A stretch of 64,000 nt of DNA from Patescibacteria group bacterium (lineage in GTDB: Bacteria > Patescibacteriota > Dojkabacteria > GCA-002793355): positions 984,040-1,048,039 of the forward strand of contig BOKM01000001.1 in NCBI GenBank assembly GCA_016860985.1, in the 5' to 3' direction. The position numbers were made by a program, and so were the translations under genes. This document shows positions 7,608 to 30,602 of the stretch, piece by piece. The notes beneath the pieces were generated by a model. That model made no database searches, was not told the origin of the DNA, and saw nothing but the letters and a program-made list of their open reading frames with translations. The stretch's first letter is position 1. Every line of letters begins with the position of its first letter.

Positions 7608-7618
7608 AATCCAAAACT

Positions 7619-8659: not shown

Positions 8660-8694
8660 TTTTACTAGCCTCTTTGAAAATTTGCCAAAGCATG

Positions 8695-8709
8695 CTACAC
8701 TTGTAGTAG
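8695..8709. promoter_or_regulatory. Putative operator (CTACA-CT-TGTAGTAG, exact cop-box TACAnnTGTA) upstream of the second BlaI-like gene
   Basis: Inverted repeat 25 nt upstream of the start codon at 8734. -35-like TTGCCA at 8682-8687. Confidence 0.55.
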
Positions 8710-8733
8710 TTATTTTATAGTAATTTAATAAGT

Positions 8734-9099: not shown

Positions 9100-10045
9100 T
9101 ATTTTTAAAAAACAAACAAATCGCCTTTTTATTATTTATTGTATTTCAGGTTTTGCCTATATAACTCTCCTATTGCTTTTATCTATAAGAGCTTTGCCAG
9201 GTTTTTTTATGCAAGTATTGTTTCTTGCTGATGCAATAATTAAAAGTCATTCAGAAATTAGCCCTATTATATTTAGTGATGCATTTATTAAAGCTTTCGT
9301 TTCAGGAGGAATCTCTATGGGTTTGATATTTATTGCAGTAAGAGGAATCTCTAGCTCAACAAAACAGCTAATAATAACCAGCAAATTTTTAAACTCCTTA
9401 AAGATTAAATCTAAAGTTAATATTGTTAATTTAGATGTTACAGATACTTCTGTATTCACTGCTGGAATGATTACACCTAAGGTCTATATTTCCTCAAAGC
9501 TAAAGGACTCATTAACTTCTGAACAGTTAAAGGCGGTTTTGCATCATGAGTTTTCGCATTGCAAAGATCATGACCCATTAAGAGGGTTTATCGTACAACT
9601 CATCAATAACATACTTCCGAAATTTCCTTTTAAGAACAAATTGAAAGATATTTATTTCACATCTGTTGAATTAAAAAGTGATGAACACTCCAAAAATATA
9701 TTAGGAAAGAAAAGACCAATTATAGAAGCCTTATACTCAATTCTGAGTAACGATTTTTCCATGTCAATGCAACCGAATTTAGCACATTTTAGTAATATGC
9801 CCGAAAGAATACCTGTATTAGTTGGAGCAAAAAAGTTTAACTTCAAATTAGTTACTGCTTTATCATCATTCTTTCTATTTGCCTTAGTCAGTTTACCTGT
9901 TTTGGCCTATACAGCAAAATTTTATAACTGTGAACATATTGAAGATTGTATTCAAATATTTGTTAATAATCTGCAAAGCAATTCTTCTGAAAATCTATGC
10001 TCTATGCATTCGATGGATACTCCAACTTCTTGTACATCAAATTAA
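9092..10045 (+). CDS. BlaR1-like M56 family peptidase (paralogue 2) with a Cys-rich C-terminal tail
   Basis: HExxH in VLHHEFSHCKDHDPL. N-terminal TM segments. The C-terminus is FYNCEHIEDCIQIF...LCSMHSMDTPTSCTSN. Confidence 0.8.
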   Translation: MNNIFKKQTNRLFIIYCISGFAYITLLLLLSIRALPGFFMQVLFLADAIIKSHSEISPIIFSDAFIKAFVSGGISMGLIFIAVRGISSSTKQLIITSKFLNSLKIKSKVNIVNLDVTDTSVFTAGMITPKVYISSKLKDSLTSEQLKAVLHHEFSHCKDHDPLRGFIVQLINNILPKFPFKNKLKDIYFTSVELKSDEHSKNILGKKRPIIEALYSILSNDFSMSMQPNLAHFSNMPERIPVLVGAKKFNFKLVTALSSFFLFALVSLPVLAYTAKFYNCEHIEDCIQIFVNNLQSNSSENLCSMHSMDTPTSCTSN

Positions 10046-10075
10046 TTCTAAAAGTTCTTGACAATTAATCATTAA

Positions 10076-10095
10076 GCTACTACACTTGTAGTAGC
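10076..10095. promoter_or_regulatory. Putative operator (GCTACTACA-CT-TGTAGTAGC, perfect 9-nt arms, cop-box TACAnnTGTA)
   Basis: TTGACA -35 at 10058-10063. The operator overlaps the -10 position. Start codon at 10117. Confidence 0.65.
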
Positions 10096-10116
10096 TTAAT
10101 TTGTTATGAACTATGA

Positions 10117-11706: not shown

Positions 11707-11719
11707 TACAATTACATAA

Positions 11720-12697
11720 ATGATTCTAAGAATTAGTCCAACAAAACTTATTGTTCAAATATTTGTTACTCAATCATTAGTACTAGTATTTCTTGGAATA
11801 ACAAATATTATTGATCACCTAACGCTTTTTTATAATACCTTCACCCATTCTCAATTTATTTCTTTTGGTGTTTTAAGCTTAATTGTTAGTTTGGTAGTAC
11901 TTATTGTTTCTATTGCATACGGTCTCTCTTTGTGGCTCAATACTGTTTATGAGATAAGCAATGGAAAGCTCACGATAAAGAAGGGACTTTTAAACAGACA
12001 GGTATTAGAAATTAAATTAAGCAATATTGTACAAACTGAAAGTAATTTACCATTTTTAGGAAAGTTCTTTAATTATGGAGATATTTCATTTAAAACTGAA
12101 AATGGTGGGAAAACAATCAGGATTAAATCAATAACAGATGTACTAGATGTTCAAAAGTTTCTCCAAAACCAAAAAATGATTAATAGCAGTAGGCTTCCAA
12201 AAGTTACTAAAGAATCTATAGTTGAAATCATCAAAAACGGAGAGACAGATGAAATTGAATTCAAATCTAGTTTGAGATGGGATTTATCACTTCTAAAAGT
12301 AAATAAAGTATTAGAGAAATCAGTATTTAAGACAATAGTTGGATTTCTCAATGGCAATGGTGGATTGTTAATTGTTGGTGTTAGTGACACAGGGGAACTC
12401 TTAGGCTTAAATAATGACTATTTAAGCCTTCCAAAGAAAAATATTGATGGTTTCGAAAATCATATGACTCAACTCTTCGGCGAATGTATAGGGATTGAAC
12501 ATAGGCACTTAATAAAAATATTTCACTTCGTTATTGAGAATAAAGAAGTTGCGGTTGTGAGAATTAAGCCAAGTAAAAATCCAATTTATTTAAGGAATGG
12601 AGAAAATGAGGATTTTTTCTTGCGTACAGGAAATACTACCAGTTTACTTTCTGGGCATGAGATCTTTAATTATCTTAGATATCGTAACAAAATATGA
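11720..12697 (+). CDS. Membrane-anchored bPH_2 (DUF304/YdbT-like) domain protein fused to an AlbA_2/Schlafen-like putative DNA-binding domain
   Basis: Two N-terminal TMs. SNGKLTIKKGLLNRQVLEIKLSNIVQ...YGDISFKTENG matches bacterial PH domains. The C-terminus EIEFKSSLRWDL...KTIVGFLNGNGGLLIVGVSDTGELLG matches the AlbA_2 (PF04326) signature. Confidence 0.6.
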   Translation: MILRISPTKLIVQIFVTQSLVLVFLGITNIIDHLTLFYNTFTHSQFISFGVLSLIVSLVVLIVSIAYGLSLWLNTVYEISNGKLTIKKGLLNRQVLEIKLSNIVQTESNLPFLGKFFNYGDISFKTENGGKTIRIKSITDVLDVQKFLQNQKMINSSRLPKVTKESIVEIIKNGETDEIEFKSSLRWDLSLLKVNKVLEKSVFKTIVGFLNGNGGLLIVGVSDTGELLGLNNDYLSLPKKNIDGFENHMTQLFGECIGIEHRHLIKIFHFVIENKEVAVVRIKPSKNPIYLRNGENEDFFLRTGNTTSLLSGHEIFNYLRYRNKI

Positions 12698-13485
12698 AAA
12701 ATTTATTAACCAAATTACCCTTAGTTATTTCGTTGTTATTTATACTCGCTACATTGTTAGCTGTACTTGCTCCTGTATTTGCTTATTTAAAGCTAAACTT
12801 TTTATCTGACCCAATTTATTGGTTTTATCAGTGGTTTTGCCATCAAAGACCTTGGCGTTCATATCATATGTTTGATTATCAATATGCACTGGATGCGAGA
12901 ATGATTACTTTGTTTTTAGGTCTGGGTGTCGGTGGCTTATTAACATCAGTAAAAAAGTTAAAACCATTAAAATGGAAATATGTAATGATTGTTATCATAA
13001 TAATGATTGTTCCTATGGGAATTGATGGCATAACTCAATTAATTGCAGAGTTAAGTGTTATAAACAAAGTAACACAGTTGCCATTTTATGAGAGTACAAA
13101 TTTTATCAGAAGTATTACTGGTATTTTTGCAGGTGTTGGAATTTCAGTAGCATTATTTCCATATATTAATAATGGCGAATCTGTAGGTTTTAACAACGAT
13201 TATCTTAAAACAATACTTCTTGGAATGCTTATAACCTTTTTATTTATTCCTCTTTTTGTGTATCTATGGTTTGTATCCTCTACTAAATATACACCATCTT
13301 CAATGTTTATTGATTCATTACAGAGATTTCCAGGATACAATTATGAAGTAACAACTGGTGGCGGTCACTCAACCATCAATAGGATCATCAAAGAACCTAC
13401 AGATCTCTATAAGCAAAGAGAAAAGTATTATCAGAATAAGAATACTGGGCTATGCAGTGGTAGTACAAAAGAAAATTGTAATTAA
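12694..13485 (+). CDS. Polytopic membrane protein, DUF2085-like (CHQRP motif)
   Basis: Multiple TM helices. WFYQWFCHQRPWRSYHMF resembles the conserved CHQ-R-P-x-RSF motif of DUF2085. Low certainty. Confidence 0.45.
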   Translation: MKNLLTKLPLVISLLFILATLLAVLAPVFAYLKLNFLSDPIYWFYQWFCHQRPWRSYHMFDYQYALDARMITLFLGLGVGGLLTSVKKLKPLKWKYVMIVIIIMIVPMGIDGITQLIAELSVINKVTQLPFYESTNFIRSITGIFAGVGISVALFPYINNGESVGFNNDYLKTILLGMLITFLFIPLFVYLWFVSSTKYTPSSMFIDSLQRFPGYNYEVTTGGGHSTINRIIKEPTDLYKQREKYYQNKNTGLCSGSTKENCN

Positions 13486-13494
13486 TAATTGACA

Positions 13495-13516
13495 TACTAC
13501 TACATGTGTAGTAGTA
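13495..13516. promoter_or_regulatory. Putative operator (TACTACTACA-TG-TGTAGTAGTA, perfect 10-nt arms, cop-box TACAnnTGTA)
   Basis: TTGACA -35 at 13489-13494, immediately upstream. Start codon of the downstream operon at 13557. Confidence 0.65.
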
Positions 13517-13556
13517 TAACTAAGAATGCAGTAGATTAAATTTTAAATAACAAATA

Positions 13557-13994
13557 ATGTCTAAAAAGAATAAAAATATACAAGAAACTACCACAATTAA
13601 TGGAACAGGCGTATTGATTGGGATTGCTGTAATAGTTGTGATAGGTTTTGTCTTTCTTATTGGATCTGGAAATAATAATTCTGCAGATGTAAAAGGAGCA
13701 AGCTCAAGCGTTGTAAGTACTTCGGGAGATAAACAAGTTGTTGAAGTGACCGTTAGTGGCGGTTACTCACCTCGTACAATTAACGCCAAAGCAGGAGTTC
13801 CAACAATTATTCGCATGAAATCAGATGGTGCATATGGTTGTGAAAGAGCTTTTAGAATACCAAGTTTAGGAATATCAAAGACATTACCAGCAAGTGGTAA
13901 TACTGATATTGAAATTACTTCCCAAAATGCAGGTACCAGCTTAAGAGGTACGTGTAGTATGGGAATGTATAGTTTTGTAATTAATTTTAATTAA
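13557..13994 (+). CDS. Membrane-anchored cupredoxin-like metal-binding domain protein
   Basis: N-terminal TM. YSPRTINAKAGVPTIIRMKSDGAYGCERAF...GTCSMGMYSF is paralogous to the C-terminal domain of 10117-11706 (C...C-x-MGM). Confidence 0.55.
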   Translation: MSKKNKNIQETTTINGTGVLIGIAVIVVIGFVFLIGSGNNNSADVKGASSSVVSTSGDKQVVEVTVSGGYSPRTINAKAGVPTIIRMKSDGAYGCERAFRIPSLGISKTLPASGNTDIEITSQNAGTSLRGTCSMGMYSFVINFN

Positions 13995-14002
13995 TAATAT
14001 AT

Positions 14003-14227
14003 ATGAAATACCAAATAAATATTTCAGGCATGCACTGTTCAGGATGTAAGAACTTAATAACCATGTCTCTAGAAGACATTGGGCTAGAAGAAGTTGTTGT
14101 TGATCCTGAAAAGAATATTGCTACTTTCGTGACCGCTAATAAGGCTGAAGAGGTAGAAAAAGATCTTCAAGAAGTATTTAAAGAGTTAACAGACTATAAA
14201 TACTCTAATCTTAATATTATTGCTTAA
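14003..14227 (+). CDS. copZ: Heavy-metal-associated domain copper chaperone (CopZ-like)
   Basis: 74 aa. GMHCSGCKNLI (MxCxxC). Ferredoxin-like HMA length. Confidence 0.8.
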   Translation: MKYQINISGMHCSGCKNLITMSLEDIGLEEVVVDPEKNIATFVTANKAEEVEKDLQEVFKELTDYKYSNLNIIA

Positions 14228-14244
14228 TTTTTATTTAAATAACT

Positions 14245-14805
14245 ATGTCAAAATATATAACAATTTCACTCGTCATTATTTTCTTTGTACTTGGAACAGG
14301 TCTTGGCTATGTGGTATCACCACAATACTCAATGAACCAATATGAAAGTAAACAAATGGTAGATTTAGGTAAAGCTGATAAATATGTTGATTTACGGTAC
14401 ATAAATGCAATGATTGCACATCACAAGGGTGCGATGAAACTAGCAGAACAGGTTAAAAATGAATCTAGAAGACAAGATATTAAAGATTTAGCAAATATGA
14501 TTTTAACTGACGAACCCAAAGCAATTGCTGAACTATATCAATGGAAGAAGGATTGGTATAACGACACAACAGAAGTCGCTTCAATGGAAGTTCCAAATTT
14601 AGGTACATATGATGAAAAGTTGGATTGGAGATTTTTAAATGCTCTTATTACTCATCACGAATCTGGAATTGAAATGACAATGGAGATTCAAAAGAAATCA
14701 ACAAGAAATGAAATCTTGAACAATGCAAATGCTGTAGAAGACTTTTTACATAAAGGTAAGATCAAATTAAGTCAAATGAGAACTGATTGGTACGAAGTCA
14801 AATAA
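14245..14805 (+). CDS. DUF305 family protein (periplasmic, copper-resistance associated)
   Basis: N-terminal TM. Duplicated AHHKGAMKLAEQ and THHESGIEMTMEIQ, the H-H repeats typical of DUF305. Confidence 0.65.
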   Translation: MSKYITISLVIIFFVLGTGLGYVVSPQYSMNQYESKQMVDLGKADKYVDLRYINAMIAHHKGAMKLAEQVKNESRRQDIKDLANMILTDEPKAIAELYQWKKDWYNDTTEVASMEVPNLGTYDEKLDWRFLNALITHHESGIEMTMEIQKKSTRNEILNNANAVEDFLHKGKIKLSQMRTDWYEVK

Positions 14806-14829
14806 TTAACCTACTATCATATAAATAAC

Positions 14830-17142
14830 ATGGAAAAAATAACAATACCTATTAAGGGAATGCACTGTGCAAGTTGTGCATTAACAATTGAGAAAGCAAT
14901 TTCCAAAGTGAATGGAGTTGACTCAATTAAAGTAAATTATGGCACAGAAAAAGCAACTATTGAGTTTGATAAAACTGCAACATCTATAGACCAAATGAGC
15001 GAAAGAATAAAGCCATTTGGCTATGAATTGCAAAATGAAGTTGCAATGCCAATGAGTCACGGAAATATGTCTGCAAATGAACATGCAGAACACTTAGGAC
15101 TGGACAAAAGCAAGCAAGAAAAACTTAAGGAACTTGATGATCAAAAAGCTAAAGTCGAATTTGTATTGCCAATAGCAATAATGATCTTTGCTTTAATGAT
15201 GTGGGAAATTAGTGCAAAATCATTCCCAAATGTAGTTCCTGCATTTTTTCTTCCAATGCAACTATACTCCACAATGATGATGATTATTTCTTCTGTAGTA
15301 CTGTTTTGGATTGGACAACCTTTTTTAAAGGGCATTGTAAACTTCATTCAATATAAAGTTGCCAATATGGACACTTTAATTGGAATTGGTACTTTAACAG
15401 CGTATCTCTATAGCTCATTTGTTGTTTTATTCCCTAATATCGCACATTCGGCTGGACTTCCTGAAACAAATTACTTTGATGTTGCAATCGTTGTTATTGG
15501 ATTTATTGTCTTTGGTAAATATCTAGAAGCACGATCAAAGCTAAAAACAGGAGAAGCCATAGAAAAGTTAATGAATCTTCAAGCAAAGACTGCATTAGTA
15601 GAAAGAAATGGAGAAGAGGTTGAAATTGCAATTGATATGGTGCAACTTGATGATGTCGTCATCGTTAAACCAGGTGGAAAAATCCCTGTAGACGGCGTTA
15701 TTATCGAAGGCAAATCTTCAATTGATGAATCTATGGTAACTGGTGAGCCAATTCCAGTCGATAAAACAGTTGAAGACAAAGTTATCGGAGGAACAATAAA
15801 CAAACAAGGTACATTCAAATTTAAAGCTACAAAAGTTGGTTCAGATACTCTTTTGGCAAGCATTATTAAGATGGTTGAGGAAGCACAAGGTTCTCGAGCA
15901 CCAATCCAAAAATTGGCAGATCAAATTTCTGGTGTTTTTGTACCTGTAGTACTTATAATAGCTGTTCTGACCCTAATCATATGGTTGGCAGTTGGGAGTC
16001 AATTTATGCCCTTTAACGAAGCTCTTACCTATGGATTATTATGTTTCGTAGGTATCTTAGTAATTGCGTGTCCATGTGCTTTAGGTCTTGCTACTCCTAC
16101 AGCGATTATTGTAGGGGTTGGTAAAGGTGCTCAAAACGGTATTCTTATTAAAAATGCTGAAAGTCTAGAAAAGTTGCATAAAGTTAATACCATTGTTGTC
16201 GATAAAACAGGTACAATTACAAAGGGCAAGCCTGAAGTTACAGATATTCTTCCTTCTTATGCCGATGAATCTCTTGACGGAGTTGAAATACTAAAATTAA
16301 TCGCTTCATTAGAAAAGAACTCGGAGCATCCATTAGCTGAAGCAATCAAGGAAAAGGCAAAATCTATGGATGTACAACTAGCAAAAGTTAATGACTTCGA
16401 AATCATTGAAGGTAAAGGATTAAAAGGTACTATTGATGGGAAGATGTACTATGCTGGCAATTTAAAGCTTATGGATGACTTAAATCTTGATTACGATAAG
16501 GATTTAATTGATAAATTGTCAAAGCAAGGTAAAACCCCAGTACTCTTTACAGATGATAAAAAGGTGTTAGCAACAATTGCAATTTCAGATACTATTAAAG
16601 AATCAAGTGCAGATGCAGTTGCAAGACTACATAAGCTCGGTGTTAAAGTTGTAATGCTTACTGGTGATAATCGAAACACTGCAAAATACATTGCAGACTT
16701 AGTAGGAATCGATAAAGTCTTTGCAGAGGTATTACCAAGTGAAAAAGCGGATAAGGTTCGTGAACTACAAGCAGAGGGTTTGGTTGTCGCAATGGCAGGA
16801 GATGGTGTAAATGATGCACCTGCACTCGCACAATCTGATGTTGGAATAGCTATGGGTACAGGTACTGATGTTGCAATTGAATCAGCAGACATAACATTGC
16901 TTGCGGGGGATATCTCAAAGATCCCACAAGCGATCAAGTTGTCAAAGAAAACAATGGCAACTATTAAGCAAAATCTCTTTTGGGCATTTATCTACAATGT
17001 TGTTGGTATTCCATTAGCGGCTGGATTACTCTTTCCAATTTGGGGAATTCTATTAAATCCAGTATTCGCAGGCTTAGCAATGGCATTTAGTAGTGTTTCT
17101 GTTGTTACAAATTCACTGAGATTGAAGTTTGTTAAGATTTAA
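14830..17142 (+). CDS. copA: Copper-translocating P1B-type ATPase CopA
   Basis: N-terminal [14 protein letters not shown] in [31 protein letters not shown]. 770 aa. Confidence 0.9.
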
Positions 17143-17161
17143 TTTCTTAAATAATTAATGT

Positions 17162-17719
17162 ATGAAAAAAGAAGTATTAGGAGGTTTGATCATTGTAGCA
17201 ATTGTTGTTGGAGGTTTAGTTTTCTATTCATTGAATAATAAACAAAAATCAGACACTTTAACGAATCAACCTCAGCCGACCTCAAGTACAACGCCAACAA
17301 ATACAGTCGAAGAAACAGAGAAGTATGTGTTTACAGGAAATAAGGGTGAAACACTTCAATTGGTTGACGGAAAGGTATCTATTCCTACTAATGGATTCGA
17401 GGTTAATAAAGTAAAGTTCTTTAATGTAACTTTAGCTGATGGAACCACAGTCTATTTTATGGTCTTAAAAGATGCTGAAGGTAAATTTAGAGTTGCAGCT
17501 AATGGCAATAAACAGTGTGCAAAGTATGGGAAAGGTTATGTGCAAGAAGGAAACAAGCTTATTTGTACAGTTTGTGAAAAGAGTTATTCCGTTGAAGATT
17601 TTGCTATTGAAAAACCAGACTGCAACCCATACCCAATTAATGCAAATGAAAAGGTTAATGGAAGCAATGTTGTCATAGGTGTGAGCGAATTAGAAACTGT
17701 GACATCGCTATTTAAGTAG
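17162..17719 (+). CDS. Membrane-anchored Cys-rich hypothetical protein
   Basis: N-terminal TM. Thr/Pro-rich linker. The C-terminal CxxC-containing region is NGNKQCAKYG...ICTVCEKSY...PDCNPYP. Last gene of the co-directional block. Confidence 0.45.
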   Translation: MKKEVLGGLIIVAIVVGGLVFYSLNNKQKSDTLTNQPQPTSSTTPTNTVEETEKYVFTGNKGETLQLVDGKVSIPTNGFEVNKVKFFNVTLADGTTVYFMVLKDAEGKFRVAANGNKQCAKYGKGYVQEGNKLICTVCEKSYSVEDFAIEKPDCNPYPINANEKVNGSNVVIGVSELETVTSLFK

Positions 17720-17730
17720 CGTTAAAAGTA

Positions 17731-17776
17731 TAGTGGGTAGTAATAATACATACTACCCACTAGTTTGTGCCTTTTT
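17731..17776 (+). terminator. Rho-independent terminator-like hairpin
   Basis: Perfect 12-bp stem TAGTGGGTAGTA / TACTACCCACTA with an 8-nt loop, followed within a few nt by CCTTTTT. Located directly after the stop at 17719. Confidence 0.5.
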
Positions 17777-18158
17777 AGAACGATTTCTTTTTTAAGTGTA
17801 GGCAAATACCAAATAGTATTATTAAAAAATTAATTGGTAAAAAAGCAAAAGAGACCAACCAACTAATCCAGTTAAATGAAGATGATCTCATAATCATTCC
17901 ACTTTTCCCATGCGTAAATTTCATGTTTATATTATAATAAAAATTAGTTAAGAATAATAAAATTATCGATGAAAAGTGAGGCACCTGTACTAAGTGCGGT
18001 TCGGACTTCATCCAGTGCCCCGCTTGACTGGTTTTGTGCGCAGCGCAAAACAGACAAGCAGGTACGTGTCCGGACCCAATAGACAACTTCGTCTGAATAA
18101 TGAATTGGAGTTCGACCGGAACGTGTGCATGTCCTTTGTATATATGCAGATTCATGCA

Positions 18159-23821: not shown

Positions 23822-24877
23822 CTATTTTTTCTTCTCTACTGGGCTGTTTGATCCATTGTAAAGAACATAATCGGCAACTTCTGGTACAGATTTGTTGAGC
23901 AACACAAGTCTAGTTGATTGTTGGAATACTTGTTGATCGCTTGAGGCAGTACCTGAATATACTCCTGCATTAATCATAGCCATTTGGAATATGGGGAGCT
24001 CATGCTGAGCATTTACTGTCGGGTCAGCGGTAACGCTAACATCAACATACGGAACGATTGCGGGATCTGTCGCCTTAAGTAAGGGTTTGACACGGTAAGA
24101 GGAGATGCCGGAGCCAACGGTTTCTACTCCGAAGCAATAGTCACCTAATTTTGTTGCTTTTCCTGGAACAGTATCGTTAAGGTTTGCATCGACGATTACT
24201 TCCCTACAATCGGTCTTCTTAGTAATCTTCATAGTCGCGGGTAAGCAGTTTGAAGTCGCTGGTGCTGCATTTACGTCAATCAAACACTCACCAAGTACCT
24301 GTAAGCCAGAAGCACTTCGAATAAATCCTTTGACGAGTAGCTTTGAATCAGTAACGTTATAAGAAGGATTGGCTTTCAAATGAATAATTGCTTTTGAATT
24401 TGCTGCGGATGCTGGTGTCGTTGATCCTGTTCCGGTCGGTGGTGCCATAAATACTTCTAGGTTCTCGCTATCAAACAACTTAAACTGCACAATCATTTTA
24501 TAATAGCCGACTTGTGCAATACTGTTTGCATCACACTGATTCTCAATATCCGTTGCTTCTGGGTCACATAGACCAAGTGTGGTCATTCCTGTTTGATCTT
24601 TTGAGCTGATAGAAAAAAGTGCTGTTGGGCTTGAGGGGTTTGGTGATAATTGACCGTTTTGAAGTTGGAGTGTGATATTTTCTACTGCTGCTTCTGAAAA
24701 TGTTTCGGCTCTTGTTGATGCACGCTCTTCACCTTGCTGTCTAATATCTTGCACTACCCTATTTGTGATGGAAAATGCAACGATAACAGATACGACAACG
24801 ATGATTAAAACGAGTGCTAATGCTTGCCCTTTTGCGCGGAGTTGTTTCATAGAAATACTGTATTGATTTTTACGCAT
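23822..24877 (-). CDS. Secreted or membrane-anchored hypothetical protein with a pilin-like hydrophobic N-terminus
   Basis: KGQALALVLIIVVVSVIVAFSIT is a signal-anchor. The rest is Thr/Ser-rich with no assignable domain. Confidence 0.45.
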   Translation of the reverse strand: MRKNQYSISMKQLRAKGQALALVLIIVVVSVIVAFSITNRVVQDIRQQGEERASTRAETFSEAAVENITLQLQNGQLSPNPSSPTALFSISSKDQTGMTTLGLCDPEATDIENQCDANSIAQVGYYKMIVQFKLFDSENLEVFMAPPTGTGSTTPASAANSKAIIHLKANPSYNVTDSKLLVKGFIRSASGLQVLGECLIDVNAAPATSNCLPATMKITKKTDCREVIVDANLNDTVPGKATKLGDYCFGVETVGSGISSYRVKPLLKATDPAIVPYVDVSVTADPTVNAQHELPIFQMAMINAGVYSGTASSDQQVFQQSTRLVLLNKSVPEVADYVLYNGSNSPVEKKK

Positions 24878-24962
24878 ATTGTCAATTGTCAGTGTGATAT
24901 TTTTGCACTTGCGAACGCTGAAATGTTAGGTATACTATGCGCATACATAATATCAGTCTGCA

Positions 24963-26417
24963 TTGTGGCTCTGCGCGAGCATGAAAATTTGTATTATTGA
25001 CGATGCTGACCCTTCAAGTCAGCAATTCCCTTATGTCCCCGAAAAATATTTGGAGGGTCATACTTGGGAGAAGCATTTGGTAACAAAGGGCAATGCAGTA
25101 CTCACCATAAAGCAACTTGCAACAAAGGGTTTTGATGTCTTTCTTAATCTTTGTTGTGGCGCCTTCGACGAAGATAGCCCCGGAATAGAAGTGGTACAGG
25201 CCTTGGAGCGATTTGACTGTGCCTTTACAGGTGCAGATCAACTCTTTTACGAACCTACGCGTGAGTCAATGAAGATGGTTTGCGAAGCAAATGGGTTGGC
25301 CTTTCCTAAAGGTGTGCAGATACGAACCAAAGAGGAGGTATTTGAAGCAGTAAAAGGGTTAAAGTTTCCACTCTTGGTTAAACACTCAAATAGTTACGCG
25401 AGTGTAGGCCTTACTCCTCAATCAAAAGTTGAGAATGAACAAGAGCTACTTGTGCAAGTTAATCGAATGCTCGAACTGTTCGGTACCTGCCTTGTTGAAG
25501 AGTTCATCGACGGTAAGGAATATTCTGTTCTAATTGCAGAGAATCCAGACAATTATGATGATCCAGTGGTGTTCACTCCTATTGAGGTTGTATTCGCGGG
25601 CGGTGAAACGTTTAAGCATGAATCACTAAAATGGGTGGATTATAATAAAATCTCCACGAAGCCGGTTTTCGAACCAGAATTAAAAACGAAACTCGAATAC
25701 ATGGGGAAGATTGTCTTTACTCAACTTCATGGAACTGGATATGGACGATGTGATATAAGATGCGACCAAAATGGTGTCCCTCACCTTTTGGAAATCAATC
25801 CAAACGGTGCAGTTTTTTATCCAAAAGAAGATCCTGGAACTGCAGATCATATTCTTCAGCTTGAGCCAGATGGTCACAATCGATTTATGGATTTGTTGTT
25901 GAGGTCTGCCCTTTCTCAGCGTGAAAAACGAAGGAGAGGATTTGAAGTGAGATATAGGCCTACTTCGGGGTTTGGTCTGTACGCAACTAAAAATTACGAG
26001 GTGGGAGCAGCAGTTATATCTTTGGAACAACTTCCGCACCAACTTATTTCACGTGCAGTACTTGCTTCAAAAACAGAGGAAAAGCAAGAGCGAGTGTTTG
26101 CAACGTCATTCCCACTCTCGGATACTTTGTTCTATACGCCTGCCTATAATCCTGAGGAATGGCATCCAATAAATCACTCCTGTGATCCTTCACTGTGGTT
26201 TGAACCAGGAACACTCATGCTTATTGCTCGACGAGCGATTACTGCAGGTGAGGAATTATCCTTGGATTACGGCATGTTATTTACAGAAGAACTTCCAAGT
26301 TTTGACTGCCCTTGTGGAACTGAAAACTGCCGTAAGGTAATTCGCGGTAGCGATTATAAACTTCCTGAATGTATAAACTACGGAAATCACCGTTCGCCAT
26401 ACATACTGAGTCTCTAG
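24963..26417 (+). CDS. ATP-grasp (D-Ala-D-Ala ligase-like) domain fused to a C-terminal SET domain (protein lysine methyltransferase-like)
   Basis: N-terminal half: FPLLVKHSNSYASVGL, EEFIDGKEYSVLI, LLEINPNGAVF (Ddl-like ATP-grasp). C-terminal: RYRPTSGFGLYATKNYEVGA...NHSCDPS...GEELSLDYG followed by the post-SET pattern CPCGTENC. Confidence 0.7.
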   Translation: MWLCASMKICIIDDADPSSQQFPYVPEKYLEGHTWEKHLVTKGNAVLTIKQLATKGFDVFLNLCCGAFDEDSPGIEVVQALERFDCAFTGADQLFYEPTRESMKMVCEANGLAFPKGVQIRTKEEVFEAVKGLKFPLLVKHSNSYASVGLTPQSKVENEQELLVQVNRMLELFGTCLVEEFIDGKEYSVLIAENPDNYDDPVVFTPIEVVFAGGETFKHESLKWVDYNKISTKPVFEPELKTKLEYMGKIVFTQLHGTGYGRCDIRCDQNGVPHLLEINPNGAVFYPKEDPGTADHILQLEPDGHNRFMDLLLRSALSQREKRRRGFEVRYRPTSGFGLYATKNYEVGAAVISLEQLPHQLISRAVLASKTEEKQERVFATSFPLSDTLFYTPAYNPEEWHPINHSCDPSLWFEPGTLMLIARRAITAGEELSLDYGMLFTEELPSFDCPCGTENCRKVIRGSDYKLPECINYGNHRSPYILSL

Positions 26418-26465: not shown

Positions 26466-27941
26466 ATGGCCATAAAGAAAATTGTTATTCTTCATTCTAA
26501 CGATATTCATGGTGATTTTCTCGCAGAGACGCAAGAAGGACTCAGCGAAGCTCAGGTTGGAGGACTTTCCTTGCTATCCGGCTACGTAAATCATGTAAGA
26601 AAAGAGGAGCAAAATGTTCTTTTTGTCATCTCAGGGGATATGTTGCAAGGTTCGATGATAGATACTGAGTACAAAGGAATCTCAACAATGGAGATTATGA
26701 ATTACCTCTCTCCAGATGTTGTAACACTCGGAAATCATGAGTTTGATTATGGACTACCACACCTGCTGTTTTTAGAAAAGCTTGCTAATTTTCCAATTGT
26801 AAATGCAAATCTTTATATCAAAGGATTTGGTAAAAGATTAATGAAGCCCTACCATATAGTTAACATAGACGGAATGGAGATTTTGTTTACAGGGATCATA
26901 ACCGAGAGCGTTATTGATTCCTTAAAGCAAGATAATCTTGTGGGAAGTTTTGTAACGCTTGAAGATGCAGCAAAAGAAATCGAAGACATTGCGCGCGCCT
27001 ATAAGCATACAGATATTGACCTCACGGTGGTTCTCTCTCATATTGGATTTGAATCAGATAAAGAATTGGCCGAATTACTTTCGCCTAAAGCGGGTGTAGA
27101 TTTGGTTATTGGAGGACATTCGCACACGAAGCTGACTCAGGCGGTGAGTATAAATAATATTTTGATAGCGCAAGCAGGCCACGGAACCAATAACATTGGT
27201 CGATTTGAGCTTTGGGTTGATGACGAAACAAACAGTGTGGTGAGCCACAAGTGGGAGTTGGTTGAACTTTCAAGCGCGACTGTGGTTCCTGACGAGAAAC
27301 TTGCTACCTTTATAAATACTTTTAAAGAGAACGTTGATAAGAAATACAATGCAGTACTCAGTACTTTTACGTCGATTGCAACGCACCCAAACCGTACTTT
27401 TGAATCAAGTCTCGGAAATATATATGCAGATGCTTTCGCCGAAATTGCCGGAGTTGATATGTGTTTTGTAGGAAGTGGCTCGATTCGAGTTCAAGAGCTA
27501 GGACCAACTGTTACACTTTACAATTTTCTGGATTCGTTTCCATATGATGATTCGCTGCAGCGCTTTACGTTGACAGGTGCTAATGTTCTGAAAATCTTTG
27601 CTAGATTCATGAGAAATGAGAATCGAAGTGGCGAAGGGGAATGCTATCAAGTAAGTAAGGGTATTGACGCTCAGTATGATACGCATAGTAATAAGCTCGA
27701 CCGAGTGACATTTAAAGGAAAAAGTATCGACCCAGACGCCCAATATTCTGTAGCTTTTCAAGGATATCATGTATCGTCGTGCGAAAAATTTTTAGGATTA
27801 ACATTTGAAGAACTTACGCAATTTGCACCTGTTAAGGTTATTACAGCTTCTGCGCAAGAGCTTTTGAAGGAGTACCTGAGGGTTCATCAAAGATTGTGTC
27901 CATCGGTAGAAGGAAGATTACGGTACCTTCCTGAAACTTAA
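26466..27941 (+). CDS. Bifunctional metallophosphatase/5'-nucleotidase family protein
   Basis: ILHSNDIHGDF, GNHEFDYG, GGHSH are calcineurin-like phosphoesterase motifs. The C-terminal region is a 5'-nucleotidase substrate-binding domain. Confidence 0.8.
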   Translation: MAIKKIVILHSNDIHGDFLAETQEGLSEAQVGGLSLLSGYVNHVRKEEQNVLFVISGDMLQGSMIDTEYKGISTMEIMNYLSPDVVTLGNHEFDYGLPHLLFLEKLANFPIVNANLYIKGFGKRLMKPYHIVNIDGMEILFTGIITESVIDSLKQDNLVGSFVTLEDAAKEIEDIARAYKHTDIDLTVVLSHIGFESDKELAELLSPKAGVDLVIGGHSHTKLTQAVSINNILIAQAGHGTNNIGRFELWVDDETNSVVSHKWELVELSSATVVPDEKLATFINTFKENVDKKYNAVLSTFTSIATHPNRTFESSLGNIYADAFAEIAGVDMCFVGSGSIRVQELGPTVTLYNFLDSFPYDDSLQRFTLTGANVLKIFARFMRNENRSGEGECYQVSKGIDAQYDTHSNKLDRVTFKGKSIDPDAQYSVAFQGYHVSSCEKFLGLTFEELTQFAPVKVITASAQELLKEYLRVHQRLCPSVEGRLRYLPET

Positions 27942-27989
27942 AATTGTAGGTTTGTAATCGGATTGCGAAAATGATATAATCCGCAAGTT

Positions 27990-29879
27990 ATGACTGACCA
28001 AGCCCATATTCGCAATGTAGCAATTATCGCGCACGTCGATCACGGTAAAACGTCTCTCGTCGATGCACTTATGAAGCAATCACACTTGTTTCGCGATAAC
28101 CAAAAAGAAATGAACGAGAATCTTATTCTCGATTTTAACGAGCTTGAGCGTGAGAAAGGTATCACTATTCAAGCAAAAAACATCTCAATTCCCTACCAAG
28201 ATTACAAAATCAATATTATTGATACCCCAGGGCACGCAGACTTTGGTGGCGAAGTTGAGCGAACCCTTACAATGGCAGACGGAGTTATACTATTAATCGA
28301 TGCACAAGAAGGACCAATGCCTCAGACTCGTTTCGTTTTGAAACGTGCACTTGAATTGCAATTAAAACCAATTCTTATCATTAACAAAATCGACAAGTCA
28401 CATGCAGATCCAAAACGCGCACTCGATAAGGCAAATGACCTGTTTTTGATGCTTGCAAAGCGTGATGAAGATCTAGAATTTCCTACTTTGTATGCAATTG
28501 GACGTGAAGGAAAAGTCTGGAAGCAAATTCCAGAAGGAGATCCTTCAACATGGGCAAAATTGCCTGGCGATATTACGCCAATTTTAGAAACAATCGTTGA
28601 GCACATTCCCGCACCAAAGGGCGATAAAACCGAGCCGTTTATGATGCAAGTCGCCTCAATGGATTACGACACTCATGTTGGTCGCTCACTTATTGGTCGT
28701 ATTCGACGCGGAGAAGCAAAAAGAGGAGATCCAATTGTTCTTCTCTTACCAAACCAAAAAGGCGAAGTTGAAAAATTCAAAGGTAAAATAGAAAAGTTAC
28801 AAACACGTATTGGACTTGAATTTAAAGATGTTGACCTTGCAACAACGGGTGACATTATTTCGATTTCAGGCATTGATGTTAGTGCAATCGGAGGAACAGT
28901 TTGTTCACCAGAAAAAGAAGAGGTTCTTCCATCTATCAAAATTTCAAACCCTTCAGTACAAATTACGTTTGAAGCAAATACGTCTCCATATGCTGGAAAA
29001 GAAGGCAAATTCGTGACAATGAAGCTTTTGCAGCAACGATTAGATTATGAAAAAGAGATAAACGTTGGTTTGACTATTAAGAAAATCGATGAGGGGCGCT
29101 GCTCAGTAGCAGGTCGAGGGGAACTTCAACTTGCAATTCTTATTGAAACACTCCGAAGAGAAGGTTATGAATTCCAAGTTCGACGACCTGAAGTCGTTTT
29201 GCAAGAGATTGACAAAGTTACTTGTGAACCAGTCGAAGAGCTCTTCATTGATGTTCCAGACGAATACGCCGGTGAAATCACCCAAATAGTGAGCAAGCGA
29301 AAAGGAGAACTTATCAGTATGGACTCAGAAAATGGTCAAACAAAGTTCATGTATAAGATTCTGACCAGAAACCTACTTGGAATTAGAACGGTAATGCTTA
29401 CCTCTACAAAGGGAAACGTTATCATGGCAAACTATCTTTCTGCTTATGTGCCATATACAAAACAGGCTGACCTTTTCAGAAAAGGTGTATTGATTGCGAC
29501 CGAAACAGGCGACGCAACCAGTTATGCTCTCAACATGTGTCAGGAACGAGGCGAATTGTTTGTACAACCTGCAGACAAAATTTACGAGGGCATGATTGTA
29601 GGAGTCAACAAATTCCAAGAAGATATCGAGGTCAATGCTGTAAGAGCAAAACATGCTACAAACATTCGTTCAGCTACCGCAGATGCTGGAATCAAGCTAA
29701 AACCTCCAGTACAGCTTTCAATCGAGTTTGCGCTCGCATTCTTGGCAAAAGACGAGATGCTTGAAGTTACTCCTCAAAATCTACGATTGAGAAAGATTCA
29801 CCTTTCTAAAACCGCCCGTGATGTGCAAAAGCGCAAGGACAGAAACCTTGATGCTGATGCATCTCGACAAACGGGCTAG
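27990..29879 (+). CDS. typA: Translational GTPase TypA/BipA
   Basis: [34 protein letters not shown]-like domain order. 629 aa. Confidence 0.9.
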
Positions 29880-29912
29880 TTGCCTCAGCTCTTCTATCTG
29901 CTATACTTTCAG

Positions 29913-30602
29913 ATGGATTTACTTGCCCCACTATTTTCACCAGACAGAGAGTCTGACATTCCGTTGATATACAAAGGAAAGATTTTTACACGACGTGCTG
30001 GATACCCTTTGTGGGTTTCTATAATTGGACCATCTGGTGCAGGCAAAGATACAATCAAAGATTTGTTGCTCCATACTGGTCAATTTTATTACATCAGGAC
30101 TGCTACAAATCGTTCTCCAAGAAAGGATGAAGATCCTCGTGCATACATCTGGATGAGAGCTCCTTACGAAAACGAACCTCAGCGCTCTTATTTGCGAAGT
30201 CTTATAAAGCAGTACGACCTTTTTGAATATAACTACCACTATGGCAACATGTATGGTACGCCTTTGGAATCAATTAAAATCGCAGGTAAATCGGGTAGAA
30301 TACCATTGTACTGTTCTGAGAATCAAGGAGCATTGTTTATGGAAAATCACCTCTCTGATCTATTTGATGTGCTTACCCTTTCTGTTATACCTGATTCGCT
30401 AGATGATATGGAGCGACGTATTCTTCGAGGTGGCAGAGACAATCAAGTTCAAAGGCTCGCAGAATCGCGTGAGCGAGTTCGAACTGCTCCAGAGGTCGCT
30501 CACTATATTGTTAAGAATCCGAGTTCTCCGGTAGAGAACGGAAAGAGTGGACTTGAAAGTGCTGTAGGTGCTATTAGAAAGCTACTCTATTCGATGTCCT
30601 AA
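29913..30602 (+). CDS. Guanylate kinase-like P-loop kinase
   Basis: The start was moved to ATG 29913. IIGPSGAGKDT is a Walker A motif. TATNRSPRKDEDPRAYIWM resembles the guanylate kinase TTRxPRxGExxGxxYxF segment. Confidence 0.55.
   Translation: MDLLAPLFSPDRESDIPLIYKGKIFTRRAGYPLWVSIIGPSGAGKDTIKDLLLHTGQFYYIRTATNRSPRKDEDPRAYIWMRAPYENEPQRSYLRSLIKQYDLFEYNYHYGNMYGTPLESIKIAGKSGRIPLYCSENQGALFMENHLSDLFDVLTLSVIPDSLDDMERRILRGGRDNQVQRLAESRERVRTAPEVAHYIVKNPSSPVENGKSGLESAVGAIRKLLYSMS

What the first reader, a model, noticed from the sequence alone, without database searches (positions are those of the whole stretch)
24963..26417. Single polypeptide combining a Ddl-like ATP-grasp ligase with a SET-domain methyltransferase
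The N-terminal 300 aa carry ATP-grasp motifs typical of D-Ala-D-Ala ligase-like peptide ligases. The C-terminal 150 aa are a clear SET domain (NHSCDPS, ELSLDYG) with a post-SET Cys cluster (CPCGTENC). SET domains methylate protein lysines, and ATP-grasp enzymes ligate amino acids or modify protein termini. A fusion suggests a two-step protein or peptide modification, ligation then methylation, possibly of a ribosomal or secreted substrate. I am not aware of a characterised enzyme with this architecture.
Basis: partly seen in the sequence, partly recalled or inferred. Interest (0 to 1): 0.6.

Follow-up and report, generated by a model that had tools for sequence, protein, structure and literature searches.

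The report
Amino-acid ligase fused to SET methyltransferase
This gene really does encode one protein joining an ATP-driven amino-acid-type ligase to a SET methyltransferase; it belongs to a widespread bacterial family that nobody appears to have characterised, and it most likely makes a methylated peptide-like small molecule rather than marking proteins.

Summary
It has a complete Ddl-like ATP-grasp ligase (Pfam 63 bits) and a complete SET + post-SET methyltransferase (38 bits). Every ATP/Mg, SAM, catalytic-Tyr and zinc-cluster residue is conserved.

It is not an assembly artefact. The same fusion occurs in at least 574 species genomes across about 8 phyla, and the identical protein is found in independent assemblies.

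It is not a D-Ala-D-Ala ligase, because the D-Ala site is replaced. The ligase module also exists alone. It pairs repeatedly with two SET types in several orders: G-S1, G-S1-S2, S2-G and S2x4-G-S1. A small BurB-like SET gene sits next to it in 13 of 80 loci. No other neighbour is conserved.

All detectable solved relatives of the ligase act on small molecules. The nearest match for part of the fused SET, and for the whole accessory SET, is BurB, a free-methionine methyltransferase.

Best reading (about 0.45): a bifunctional enzyme making a methylated dipeptide-like metabolite. Main rival (about 0.33): ligation plus lysine methylation of a housekeeping protein. The substrate is unknown, and I found no characterised member.

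The parts
24981..26417 (+). Complete CDS of the ATP-grasp-SET fusion protein (478 aa plus TAG stop)
   Evidence: ORF. The ATG start is shared by all homologues and gene callers.
24963..24980 (+). In-frame upstream extension from a TTG (6 codons). Probably not translated.
   Evidence: No homologue has this extension, and callers start at 24981.
24909..24936 (+). Promoter-like site TTGCGA-16-TATACT upstream of the gene. This is weak evidence.
   Evidence: The number of such sites in the region is no higher than in shuffles.
24981..25913 (+). Ddl-like ATP-grasp ligase half (residues 1-311), with all three Ddl sub-domains
   Evidence: Family HMM match. Pfam PF07478. Foldseek matches whole Ddl structures, E=1.6e-16, target TM 0.80.
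25146..25175 (+). N-domain loop NLCCGAFDED (family consensus NLCDGAWDED), at the position of the Ddl H63/E68 substrate loop. Acidic and highly conserved.
25374..25409 (+). LVKHSNSYASVG. K134 corresponds to Ddl K144 (ATP phosphate). The flexible loop has Ddl S150 replaced by A140, while S141 (Ddl S151) is invariant.
   Evidence: Alignment to Y. pestis Ddl. Invariance.
25494..25520 (+). VEEFIDGKE. E173 and E180 correspond to Ddl E180 and E187 (adenine/ribose binding).
25611..25634 (+). FKHESLKW, the lid (omega-loop) segment. Invariant K217 is the likely equivalent of Ddl K215, and W218 replaces Y216.
   Evidence: (HMMER alignment is offset by one residue, so the equivalence is inferred).
25737..25805 (+). 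GYGRCDIR ... LEINPN. R256/D258 and E271/N273 correspond to Ddl R255/D257 and E270/N272 (Mg2+ and transition-state residues).
   Evidence: alignment coordinates. Invariant.
25872..25931 (+). Long helix (residues 298-317) that ends the ligase and connects rigidly to the SET domain
   Evidence: AF2 secondary structure and pLDDT. Stand-alone ligases end just after this helix.
25920..26408 (+). SET type 1 (S1) methyltransferase half including post-SET and a conserved C-terminal extension (residues 314-476)
   Evidence: Family HMM. Pfam PF00856. AF2 model with pLDDT 93 and Foldseek matches to MLL4/MLL1/ASH1L/NSD1/BurB at TM about 0.6.
25965..25985 (+). SGFGLYA, the SET-N GxG-type SAM-binding motif (G332 nearly invariant)
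26031..26051 (+). LPHQLIS strand. H353 aligns with BurB H72 (SAM contact), at the strand that holds the substrate backbone in BurB.
   Evidence: (BurB motif). PMC12542666. The equivalence is inferred.
26154..26192 (+). EEWHPINHSCDPS. This holds the NHSC SAM/knot motif (H399 and C401 invariant). W394 aligns with BurB S88, which lies between SAM and the substrate.
   Evidence: PMC12542666.
26247..26273 (+). GEELSLDYG. Y430 is the catalytic-site Tyr. L428 occupies the Phe/Tyr-switch position; it is aliphatic across the family and is Met in BurB.
26301..26357 (+). Post-SET FDCPCGTENCRKVIRGSDY. C443/C445/C450, together with C401, form the predicted Zn cluster. The CRxxIxG tail is shared with BurB.
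26379..26402 (+). Family-specific C-terminal extension YGNHRSPY with invariant H470. Role unknown.

Best explanation
The gene encodes a cytoplasmic bifunctional enzyme in which both halves are catalytically competent.

Shown: the N-terminal two-thirds is a Ddl-type ATP-grasp carboxylate-amine ligase. It should activate a carboxylate as an acyl-phosphate using ATP/Mg2+ and join it to an amine. Its D-Ala-specific pocket has been replaced, so it is not a cell-wall Ddl. The C-terminal third is a canonical SAM-dependent SET methyltransferase with a zinc post-SET. The residue at the Phe/Tyr-switch position is aliphatic, which is compatible with multiple methyl transfers.

Inferred: the two activities act in one short pathway on a small molecule. 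The ligase joins two amino-acid-like building blocks, one carrying a second nucleophile such as a Lys/Orn-type amine or a thioether. The SET domain then methylates that group. The product would be a methylated, possibly quaternary-ammonium or sulfonium, dipeptide-like metabolite such as a compatible solute or a precursor. In about 1 in 6 lineages a second, BurB-like SET adds further methylation. The order of the two steps and the identity of the substrates are not known.
For: Both domains pass Pfam gathering scores.

Ligase catalytic residues are invariant in 117 sequences from many phyla: K134, E173, E180, K217, R256, D258, E271 and N273, which correspond to Ddl K144, E180, E187, K215, R255, D257, E270 and N272. 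SET residues are invariant or nearly so: G332, N398, H399, C401, Y430, C443, C445 and C450.

The AF2 model has pLDDT 92.5 and pTM 0.86, which implies a fixed two-domain arrangement. The N-part superposes on whole Ddl structures at target TM 0.80. The SET half is a canonical SET fold.

Evidence for functional coupling: about 62 of the 150 closest representatives of this ligase subfamily carry SET, in different orders (G-S1, G-S1-S2, S2-G, S2-G-S1, S2x4-G-S1, G-S1-S2-G'). A separate small SET gene abuts the fused gene in 13 of 80 loci from at least 4 phyla.

Evidence for a small molecule:
(i) A profile of the ligase half finds only small-molecule ATP-grasps in the PDB. Ddl/VanA come first (E down to 5e-18), then PurD, the L-amino-acid ligases BL00235/RizA/BacD, glutathione synthase, CPS and cyanophycin synthase. 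No RimK, LysX or TTL appears even at E<=1.
(ii) The best PDB hit for the SET-C/post-SET segment is BurB (E=6e-8). It shares the aliphatic switch residue, DYA[ST] and FxCxCGxxxCRxxIxG.
(iii) The accessory SET's best PDB hit is also BurB (E=2e-10), over nearly the whole fold and at the same size. BurB methylates free methionine (PMC12542666).
(iv) No precursor-peptide, carrier-protein or target-protein gene is conserved nearby across phyla.
(v) Stand-alone ligases keep the same conserved residues, so the ligase product exists without methylation.
(vi) Multi-ligase/multi-methyltransferase polypeptides such as G-S1-S2-G' look like small biosynthetic assembly lines.
Against: No substrate was identified by any test here.

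Over its full length the SET half scores best against the histone-lysine methyltransferases KMT2D/MLL1. It has a KMT-length SET-I insert. Foldseek does not separate BurB from the KMTs, with TM about 0.6 for all.

Nearly all characterised SET enzymes methylate protein lysines. A universal protein substrate would not need to be encoded nearby.

In Saccharibacteria the gene is always next to typA/bipA, a ribosome-associated GTPase. Some relatives of the ligase are fused to a clostripain-type peptidase, which hints at peptide or protein substrates.

Genome-reduced Patescibacteria rarely keep specialised metabolite pathways.

The model coordinates could not be inspected, so it is unknown whether the two active sites face each other.
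Confidence: 0.45

Rival explanations
1. It is a protein-modifying enzyme. The ATP-grasp half adds an amino acid to a carboxylate (C-terminus or Glu/Asp side chain) of a conserved housekeeping protein such as a ribosomal protein or translation factor. The SET half methylates a lysine of the same protein. This would be a bacterial, catalytically active counterpart of the TTLL12-type SET + ATP-grasp architecture, and is essentially the first reader's idea.
For: Over its full length the SET half is most similar to the KMT2/MLL, ASH1L and SETD2 protein-lysine methyltransferases. It has the NHSC motif, the catalytic Tyr, a SET-I insert of KMT length and a Zn post-SET. NCBI auto-names the family a protein-lysine N-methyltransferase. 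The lack of a conserved neighbour fits a universal protein target. The gene is linked to typA/bipA-gmk in Saccharibacteria, and sits near the L11-L1-NusG genes in one relative. Ligase-clostripain fusions exist. Precedents for ATP-grasp protein ligases are RimK and TTL (from general knowledge; TTLL12 in PMC3520985).
Against: The ligase half has no detectable similarity to RimK, LysX or TTL, and is clearly in the Ddl/small-molecule clade. BurB shows that this kind of SET can act on a free amino acid, and BurB is the closest solved relative of the accessory SET and of the S1 C-terminal part. The typA linkage is confined to one lineage. Stand-alone ligases are common and have no SET nearby.
Confidence: 0.33
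2. It tailors a larger non-protein acceptor that carries a free Lys/Orn/DAP or polyamine amine. Candidates are a peptidoglycan precursor stem peptide, an aminolipid head group or a polyamine. The ligase would add an amino acid to it, as the Ddl-like D-aspartate ligase does on UDP-MurNAc-pentapeptide, and SET would methylate the remaining amine.
For: The ligase belongs to the Ddl clade. The substrate loops are acidic and conserved (NLCDGAWDED, GSAD), which would suit a cationic amine acceptor. The existence of Ddl-like ligases acting on peptidoglycan precursors is from my own knowledge and was not tested here.
Against: No cell-wall, lipid or polyamine genes are linked to it in any lineage examined. 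Nothing in the sequence points to a nucleotide-sugar or lipid binding site.
Confidence: 0.12
3. Only one half is an enzyme. The other half is a degenerate binding or regulatory module, as in human TTLL12, where both domains have lost activity.
For: TTLL12 shows that SET + ATP-grasp proteins can be non-catalytic (PMC3520985).
Against: All ATP/Mg-binding residues, SAM-binding residues, the catalytic Tyr and the Zn-cluster residues are invariant or nearly invariant across phyla at only 43-47% overall identity. That pattern indicates selection on catalysis in both halves.
Confidence: 0.05
4. It is an artefact: two separate genes joined by an assembly or frameshift error, or a chance motif match.
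For: None found.
Against: The ORF is continuous. The identical protein occurs in three independent contigs. The same architecture occurs in at least 574 species genomes. Both HMMs score well above threshold. The junction is modelled with confidence.
Confidence: 0.01

Closest known systems
D-alanine--D-alanine ligase (Ddl/VanA family, PF07478)
   Same: Same three-domain ATP-grasp fold (Foldseek target TM up to 0.80, E=1.6e-16). Same ATP- and Mg-binding residues: K144, E180, E187, K215, R255, D257, E270 and N272 equivalents. It should work the same way: an acyl-phosphate intermediate, then attack by an amine.
   Different: It scores far below every NCBIfam Ddl cutoff (67.5 against 243 bits). It lacks the N-terminal GGxSxE motif (Ddl E15). 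S150 is replaced by Ala, Y216 by Trp and H63 by Asp/Cys, and the S281/L282 region differs. It carries a C-terminal SET domain. It is therefore not a D-Ala-D-Ala ligase.
BurB (Burkholderia thailandensis SET-domain methionine S-methyltransferase, PDB 9l4t/9l4v; PMC12542666)
   Same: It is the best PDB match for the SET-C/post-SET segment (E=6e-8) and for the accessory small SET that accompanies the family (E=2e-10). It shares the aliphatic switch residue, the DYA[ST] motif, the spacing to the CxC and the CRxxIxG tail. It proves that a bacterial SET of this kind can methylate a free amino acid.
   Different: BurB is a 172-aa stand-alone protein with LHS instead of NHS and no long SET-I insert. 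It lies in the bur/DMSP-malleicyprol cluster. The window protein has a KMT-length SET-I, an NHSC motif, a fused ligase and no bur-like neighbours.
KMT2/MLL, ASH1L, NSD, SETD2 histone-lysine methyltransferase SET domains
   Same: These are the best full-length sequence and structure matches of the SET half: 4z4p at E=3.5e-9, Foldseek E=1.4e-8 and TM about 0.63. GxG, NHSC, ELxxDY and post-SET CxCx4C all align.
   Different: There are no AWS/pre-SET or chromatin-reader domains. The switch position is aliphatic rather than Phe/Tyr. There is an extra conserved C-terminal tail with invariant H470. The host is a bacterium without histones, and the domain is fused to a ligase.
TTLL12 (eukaryotic SET-like + tubulin-tyrosine-ligase-like protein; PMC3520985)
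   Same: It is the only described protein type that combines a SET-like domain with an ATP-grasp-type ligase domain in one chain.
   Different: The domain order is the opposite. The SET-like domain is of the SETD3/4/6 type and the ligase is of the TTL clade. Critical catalytic residues are missing and no activity was found in vitro. It is an independent fusion, not a homologous architecture.
L-amino-acid ligases (BL00235, RizA, BacD) and cyanophycin/glutathione synthetases
   Same: They are detectable, more distant ATP-grasp relatives (E=6.5e-6 to 0.2) that join free amino acids. They are plausible models for the ligase chemistry.
   Different: They are much more distant than Ddl, and none carries a methyltransferase domain.
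Two-activity routes to modified dipeptides: Ngg (GNAT + ATP-grasp, N-acetylglutaminylglutamine) and carnosine synthase followed by carnosine N-methyltransferase (anserine). Recalled from my own knowledge, not tested here.
   Same: They share the logic of the proposed mechanism: an ATP-grasp makes a dipeptide, and a second activity caps or methylates an amine. In Ngg both activities are on one polypeptide.
   Different: The modifying domains are different (GNAT or class I methyltransferase, not SET), and the ATP-grasp clades are different. Homology to the window protein was not tested.

Membership tests
ATP-grasp superfamily, Ddl-like clade (PF07478) | HMM score above the Pfam gathering threshold | tested here: met
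   63.4 bits against 24, E=2.6e-17.
ATP-grasp superfamily, Ddl-like clade (PF07478) | Three-domain ATP-grasp fold | tested here: met
   The AF2 model (pLDDT 92.5) superposes on whole Ddl chains at target TM 0.73-0.80.
ATP-grasp superfamily, Ddl-like clade (PF07478) | ATP-phosphate lysines and the Mg2+-binding Asp/Glu/Asn triad | tested here: met
   K134, K217, D258, E271 and N273 are invariant and align with Ddl K144, K215 (one-residue shift), D257, E270 and N272.
D-alanine--D-alanine ligase proper (EC 6.3.2.4) | Score above the NCBIfam Ddl family cutoffs | tested here: not met
   The best is NF002378 at 67.5 bits against a cutoff of 243, and TIGR01205 at 60.5 against 245.65.
D-alanine--D-alanine ligase proper (EC 6.3.2.4) | D-Ala-binding residues (E15 in the N-terminal GGxSxE motif, S150, Y216, S281/L282; E. 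coli DdlB numbering, from my own knowledge) | tested here: not met
   The N-terminal motif is absent. S150 is replaced by A140 and Y216 by W218, and the 281/282 region reads FYP...GTAD.
SET-domain methyltransferases (PF00856) | HMM score above the Pfam gathering threshold | tested here: met
   38.3 bits against 22.4, E=1.9e-9, covering the full-length model 1-105.
SET-domain methyltransferases (PF00856) | SAM-binding GxG and NHxC motifs, and the catalytic-site Tyr in ELxxDY | tested here: met
   GFG 330-332, NHSC 398-401 and DY 429-430 are invariant or nearly invariant in 117 sequences.
SET-domain methyltransferases (PF00856) | SET fold with a post-SET zinc cluster (CxCx4C plus the Cys of NHSC) | tested here: met
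   C401, C443, C445 and C450 are conserved. The SET-half model (pLDDT 93) matches the MLL4/MLL1/ASH1L/BurB structures at TM about 0.6. Zinc binding itself was not tested.
Protein-lysine N-methyltransferase (the name NCBI gives the family) | Methylates the epsilon-amine of a lysine within a protein | not testable with these tools
   No substrate can be identified computationally here. The closest solved relatives include both protein KMTs and the free-amino-acid enzyme BurB.
BurB/MSMT methionine S-methyltransferases | Small stand-alone SET of about 170 aa in a DMSP/SMM pathway cluster (burI/D/E-type neighbours) | tested here: not met
   The window SET is fused to a ligase, has a 25-residue-longer SET-I and has NHS instead of LHS. 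No such neighbours were found (PMC12542666).
RimK/LysX/TTL protein-modifying ATP-grasp ligases | Sequence membership in those clades | tested here: not met
   The window protein has no RimK or TTL Pfam hit at E<=1. No RimK, LysX or TTL chain is found by the ligase-half profile at E<=1.
TTLL12 | N-terminal SETD3/4/6-like SET followed by a C-terminal TTL-type domain, eukaryotic, with catalytic residues lost | tested here: not met
   The order is the opposite, the clades are MLL/BurB-like SET and Ddl-like ligase, and the catalytic residues are intact.
Known anti-phage defence proteins (PADLOC) | Match to any PADLOC model | tested here: not met
   No hits for the fused protein, a stand-alone ligase or an S2-G protein.

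The most novel reading that the evidence does not exclude
The family is a one-gene, or one-gene-plus-accessory-SET, pathway to a previously undescribed methylated dipeptide-type metabolite, such as a trimethyl-ammonium or sulfonium compound acting as a compatible solute or signal. It would be made by hundreds of bacterial species in at least 8 phyla, including genome-reduced Patescibacteria. It would also imply that a large share of 'bacterial SET-domain lysine methyltransferases' are in fact small-molecule enzymes, as BurB is.
Probability: 0.35. Interest if true: 0.8.

Novelty: new variant of a known kind. Interest (0 to 1): 0.62.

Why it matters
Why free-living bacteria without histones keep SET domains is an old open question. 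Here a SET domain is hard-wired to a Ddl-type ligase in at least 574 species. The pairing has arisen in several domain orders and is sometimes joined by a second, BurB-like SET.

This gives a directly testable handle: one soluble 478-aa protein, with two cofactors (ATP and SAM) and clear catalytic-dead mutants.

If the substrate is a small molecule, the family defines a new and widespread metabolite class, and extends the recent BurB discovery that SET enzymes can work on free amino acids. If the substrate is a protein, it would be the first bacterial enzyme coupling amino-acid ligation with lysine methylation, and an active analogue of the eukaryotic pseudo-enzyme TTLL12.

Either way, both current database names ('protein-lysine N-methyltransferase' and 'D-alanine-D-alanine ligase') are unsupported or wrong for this family.

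Tried and rejected
- Assembly or frameshift artefact: rejected.
- True D-Ala-D-Ala ligase: rejected on NCBIfam cutoffs and missing D-Ala residues.
- Conserved operon partner (precursor peptide, carrier protein or target). BLAST clustering of 829 neighbouring ORFs in 81 loci found only within-order synteny (Bryobacterales) and antisense shadow ORFs. Pfam-level inspection of 8 lineages found nothing shared. The only partner that recurs across phyla is the small accessory SET, which the first clustering missed and a six-frame HMM scan found.
- A SET gene next to stand-alone ligases: not seen in the three loci available; two of them are very short contigs.
- Defence-system membership: no PADLOC hit.
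- Using fold similarity to separate BurB-like from KMT-like SET: inconclusive, with TM about 0.6 for both.
- Literature. Seven searches pairing ATP-grasp or ligase terms with SET/methyltransferase or DMSP terms found only TTLL12 and unrelated papers; two further searches gave the BurB paper and nothing useful on bacterial SET architectures. The Iyer/Aravind 2009 amidoligase survey, the most likely place for an earlier in-silico mention, is not held, so prior computational notice of the fusion cannot be excluded.
- The other C- and N-terminal extensions on ligase relatives have no Pfam match.
Full report
**Observation.** The window contains an uninterrupted ORF at 24963..26417 (+), 484 aa from a TTG. 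Every homologue and every gene caller begins six codons later, at the ATG at 24981 (MKICIID...). The real product is therefore 478 aa, encoded by 24981..26417. Residue numbers below use this 478-aa numbering. Pfam finds Dala_Dala_lig_C (63.4 bits, gathering score 24, E=2.6e-17) and SET (38.3 bits, gathering score 22.4, E=1.9e-9, full-length model). The protein has no signal peptide and is acidic, with 69 D+E against 49 K+R.

**Not an artefact, and not rare.** The identical protein is encoded on three independent contigs (one over 1 Mb), and its 90% cluster has 8 members from NCBI, Logan, ENA and JGI. One of these is named as coming from a Patescibacteria-group MAG. A search of 5.8 billion proteins gave 952 hits. 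The best 120 cover at least 94% of the query (43-100% identity, 478-651 aa), and 118 of them carry both Pfam domains. They come from Saccharibacteria, Chloroflexota (Anaerolineae, Caldilineae), Rhodothermales, Gemmatimonadota, Acidobacteriota (Bryobacterales, Pyrinomonadaceae, Blastocatellia, Thermoanaerobaculia), Myxococcota, Actinomycetota (Solirubrobacterales) and Spirochaetia. The window copy belongs to a small Patescibacteria clade (59-100% identity) that is at most 48% identical to all other phyla.

**Ligase half.** The sequence was aligned to Yersinia pestis Ddl, whose numbering matches E. coli DdlB. The following equivalences result:

| Window residue | Ddl residue |
|---|---|
| K134 | K144 |
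| E173 | E180 |
| E180 | E187 |
| R256 | R255 |
| D258 | D257 |
| E271 | E270 |
| N273 | N272 |
| K217 / W218 | within one residue of K215 / Y216 |

All the window residues in this table are invariant in 117 family members, except W218, which is only nearly invariant (at least 90%). The residues that make Ddl specific for D-alanine are not kept. These Ddl residue roles come from my own knowledge of DdlB. The N-terminal GGxSxE motif (E15) is absent, S150 is Ala, Y216 is Trp, H63 is Asp (Cys in the window clade), and the S281/L282 region reads FYP...G(S/T)AD. All NCBIfam Ddl models score far below their cutoffs, for example 67.5 against 243 bits. A profile of the ligase half alone finds only small-molecule ATP-grasps in the PDB. 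Ddl/VanA come first (down to E=5e-18), followed by a PurD-like enzyme, the L-amino-acid ligase BL00235, glutathione synthase, carbamoyl-phosphate synthetase, RizA, BacD and cyanophycin synthase. No RimK, LysX or TTL chain appears even at E<=1.

**SET half.** It aligns end to end with MLL-type SET + post-SET domains (4z4p E=3.5e-9; MLL1 E about 2e-8). G332 and N398 are nearly invariant (at least 90%), as are Y430 and C443 in the 117-sequence alignment, while H399, C401, C445 and C450 are invariant. The Phe/Tyr-switch position (L428 in ELS-L-DY) is aliphatic (L, M, I or V) across the family. For the C-terminal 93 residues the best PDB match is not a histone enzyme but BurB (E=6e-8). BurB shares the aliphatic switch residue (LTMDY), the DYA[ST] motif, the identical spacing to the CxC, and the CRxxIxG tail. 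BurB S88, which lies between SAM and the substrate, aligns with the nearly invariant W394 (PMC12542666). BurB is a SET-domain enzyme that methylates free methionine to S-methylmethionine (PMC12542666).

**Structure.** With the family as the alignment, AlphaFold2 gives pLDDT 92.5 and pTM 0.86 for the whole protein. That implies a fixed arrangement of the two halves, joined by a long helix at residues 298-317. Foldseek matches the N-terminal part to complete Ddl structures (E=1.6e-16, target TM up to 0.80), and no solved structure contains the fusion. The SET half modelled alone (pLDDT 93) matches MLL4, MLL1, NSD1, ASH1L, SETD2 and BurB about equally, with TM around 0.6. The fold confirms a canonical SET domain but does not discriminate between substrate classes.

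**A modular system rather than a single fusion.** An exhaustive HMMER search with the ligase half against 1.84 billion representatives found 182 relatives at E<1e-30. I classified the best 150 with Pfam and with local HMMs. About 30 are complete stand-alone ligases of 316-350 aa. 45 have the form ligase-SET type 1 (G-S1). The rest include:
- G-S1-S2, where S2 is a second, smaller SET type;
- S2-G, with the opposite order and no S1;
- S2-G-S1;
- one protein with four tandem S2 copies followed by G-S1;
- G-S1-S2-G', with a second ATP-grasp of a different type;
- double ligases;
- two apparently eukaryotic ligase-clostripain (Peptidase_C11) fusions.

In 13 of the 80 genome loci, from Rhodothermales, Spirochaetia, Caldilineaceae, Solirubrobacterales and unclassified bacteria, a separate S2 gene of 150-190 aa directly abuts the fused gene, either upstream or downstream. 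The best solved relative of S2 is again BurB (E=2e-10), over almost the whole BurB fold and including its substrate-holding H-[ST]-[IL]-Q-[IV] strand. S2 is also the same size as BurB. Stand-alone and fused ligases conserve the same residues at essentially every conserved position (30 against 38 sequences). The ligase reaction is therefore the same with or without SET.

**Genomic context.** No other partner is conserved. BLAST clustering of all neighbouring ORFs in 81 loci gave only order-level synteny. Pfam-level inspection of eight distant lineages shows unrelated neighbours. Within Saccharibacteria the gene always lies directly upstream of typA/bipA and gmk, with or without a 5'-nucleotidase between them, as in the window (26466-27941, 27990-29879, 29880-30602). 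No terminator-like site lies between these genes on the coding (+) strand. This linkage is absent elsewhere. The three stand-alone ligase loci examined show no SET nearby, although two of them are very short contigs. There is no match to defence-system models.

**Most likely mechanism.**

Shown by sequence and structure: this is a cytoplasmic two-domain protein with an intact ATP-grasp carboxylate-amine ligase site and an intact SAM-dependent SET site, whose association is under strong and repeated selection.

Inferred: the two sites act consecutively on one substrate. I favour a small molecule, with confidence about 0.45. The ligase would join two amino-acid-like units, and the SET domain would methylate a remaining nucleophile (a Lys/Orn-type amine or a thioether). 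The product would be a methylated dipeptide-like metabolite, with S2 adding further methyl groups where it is present. The reasons are these:
- the ligase's exclusively small-molecule relatives;
- the BurB affinity of S2 and of the S1 C-terminal part;
- the absence of any linked target or precursor gene;
- the existence of stand-alone ligases;
- assembly-line-like multi-domain relatives.

The order of the steps and the substrates themselves are unknown.

**Rivals.** It is supported by the KMT-like full-length similarity of S1, the typA linkage in Saccharibacteria and the peptidase fusions. It is weakened by the lack of any similarity to RimK, LysX or TTL. A peptidoglycan-precursor, aminolipid or polyamine acceptor gets about 0.12 and has no contextual support. 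A pseudo-enzyme scenario like TTLL12 gets about 0.05 and is contradicted by the conservation of the catalytic residues. An artefact gets about 0.01 and is excluded.

**Comparison with what is known.** The protein is a member of the ATP-grasp/Ddl-like clade and of the SET superfamily, and every defining feature I could test was met. It is not a Ddl, not a BurB/MSMT orthologue, not RimK/TTL-like and not TTLL12. Whether it is a protein-lysine methyltransferase, as NCBI names it, cannot be tested here. I found no paper describing or characterising the fusion. The 2009 amidoligase survey, where it might have been noted in silico, could not be read. The architecture is already present and auto-annotated in the databases. 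I therefore rate it a new variant of known kinds rather than categorically new.

Noticed in passing
window 1500-18000: This is a low-GC stretch (31-35% against about 40% elsewhere) encoding a metal/redox-homeostasis set. It holds two P-type ATPases (1534-3426, and 14830-17142 with an HMA domain), two BlaR1/M48-M56-like peptidases (3799-4728, 9092-10045) and a DsbA-like thioredoxin (4833-5720). It also holds a class-V aminotransferase (6387-7607), an HMA-DsbD-cupredoxin fusion (10117-11706), a bPH + Schlafen/AlbA_2 protein (11720-12697), DUF2085, an FtrD-like protein and a cupin. It may be an acquired island.
   Followed up: partly
window 23822-24877 (-): This is the divergently transcribed neighbour of the target. 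It is a 351-aa protein with an N-terminal pilin-like hydrophobic helix and no Pfam match.
   Followed up: no
window 26466-30602 (+); L082, L083, L084: In all the Saccharibacteria-type relatives examined, the fused gene lies directly upstream of typA/bipA and gmk. A metallophosphatase/5'-nucleotidase is inserted between them in some, including the window. No terminator-like site lies between these genes on the coding (+) strand. The linkage is absent in other phyla.
   Followed up: partly
L004, L007, L009, L013, L018, L019, L030, L048, L058, L067, L072, L076, L078 (next to the match in each): A separate small BurB-like SET gene (S2, 150-190 aa) abuts the fused gene, upstream or downstream, in 13 of 80 species loci from at least 4 phyla. 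The same S2 domain is fused in the 630-675-aa family members. The window has no S2 within its 64 kb.
   Followed up: yes
proteins P0226, P0236, P0267, P0307 (relatives of the ligase half): These are unusual architectures. Two are ligase + clostripain-type peptidase C11 fusions in Ala-rich, apparently eukaryotic proteins. One is a 1415-aa protein with four tandem S2 SET domains, a SAF domain, the ligase and S1. One is a 6220-aa protein ending in ligase-SET.
   Followed up: partly
L089 1-2400 (Anaerolineae-type relative P0021): SAM-cycle genes lie 2.6-5 kb upstream of the fused gene in this one lineage: S-adenosylhomocysteine hydrolase, a PfkB kinase and an IF-2B/MtnA-like isomerase. They are separated from it by two opposite-strand genes. 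This was not seen elsewhere.
   Followed up: no
window 25146-25175: The window's Patescibacteria sub-clade (P0001-P0003) has Cys and Phe (NLCCGAFDED) where almost all other members, including stand-alone ligases, have Asp and Trp (NLCDGAWDED). This is the loop that corresponds to the Ddl H63 substrate loop. It may reflect a shift in substrate or affinity in this clade.
   Followed up: no
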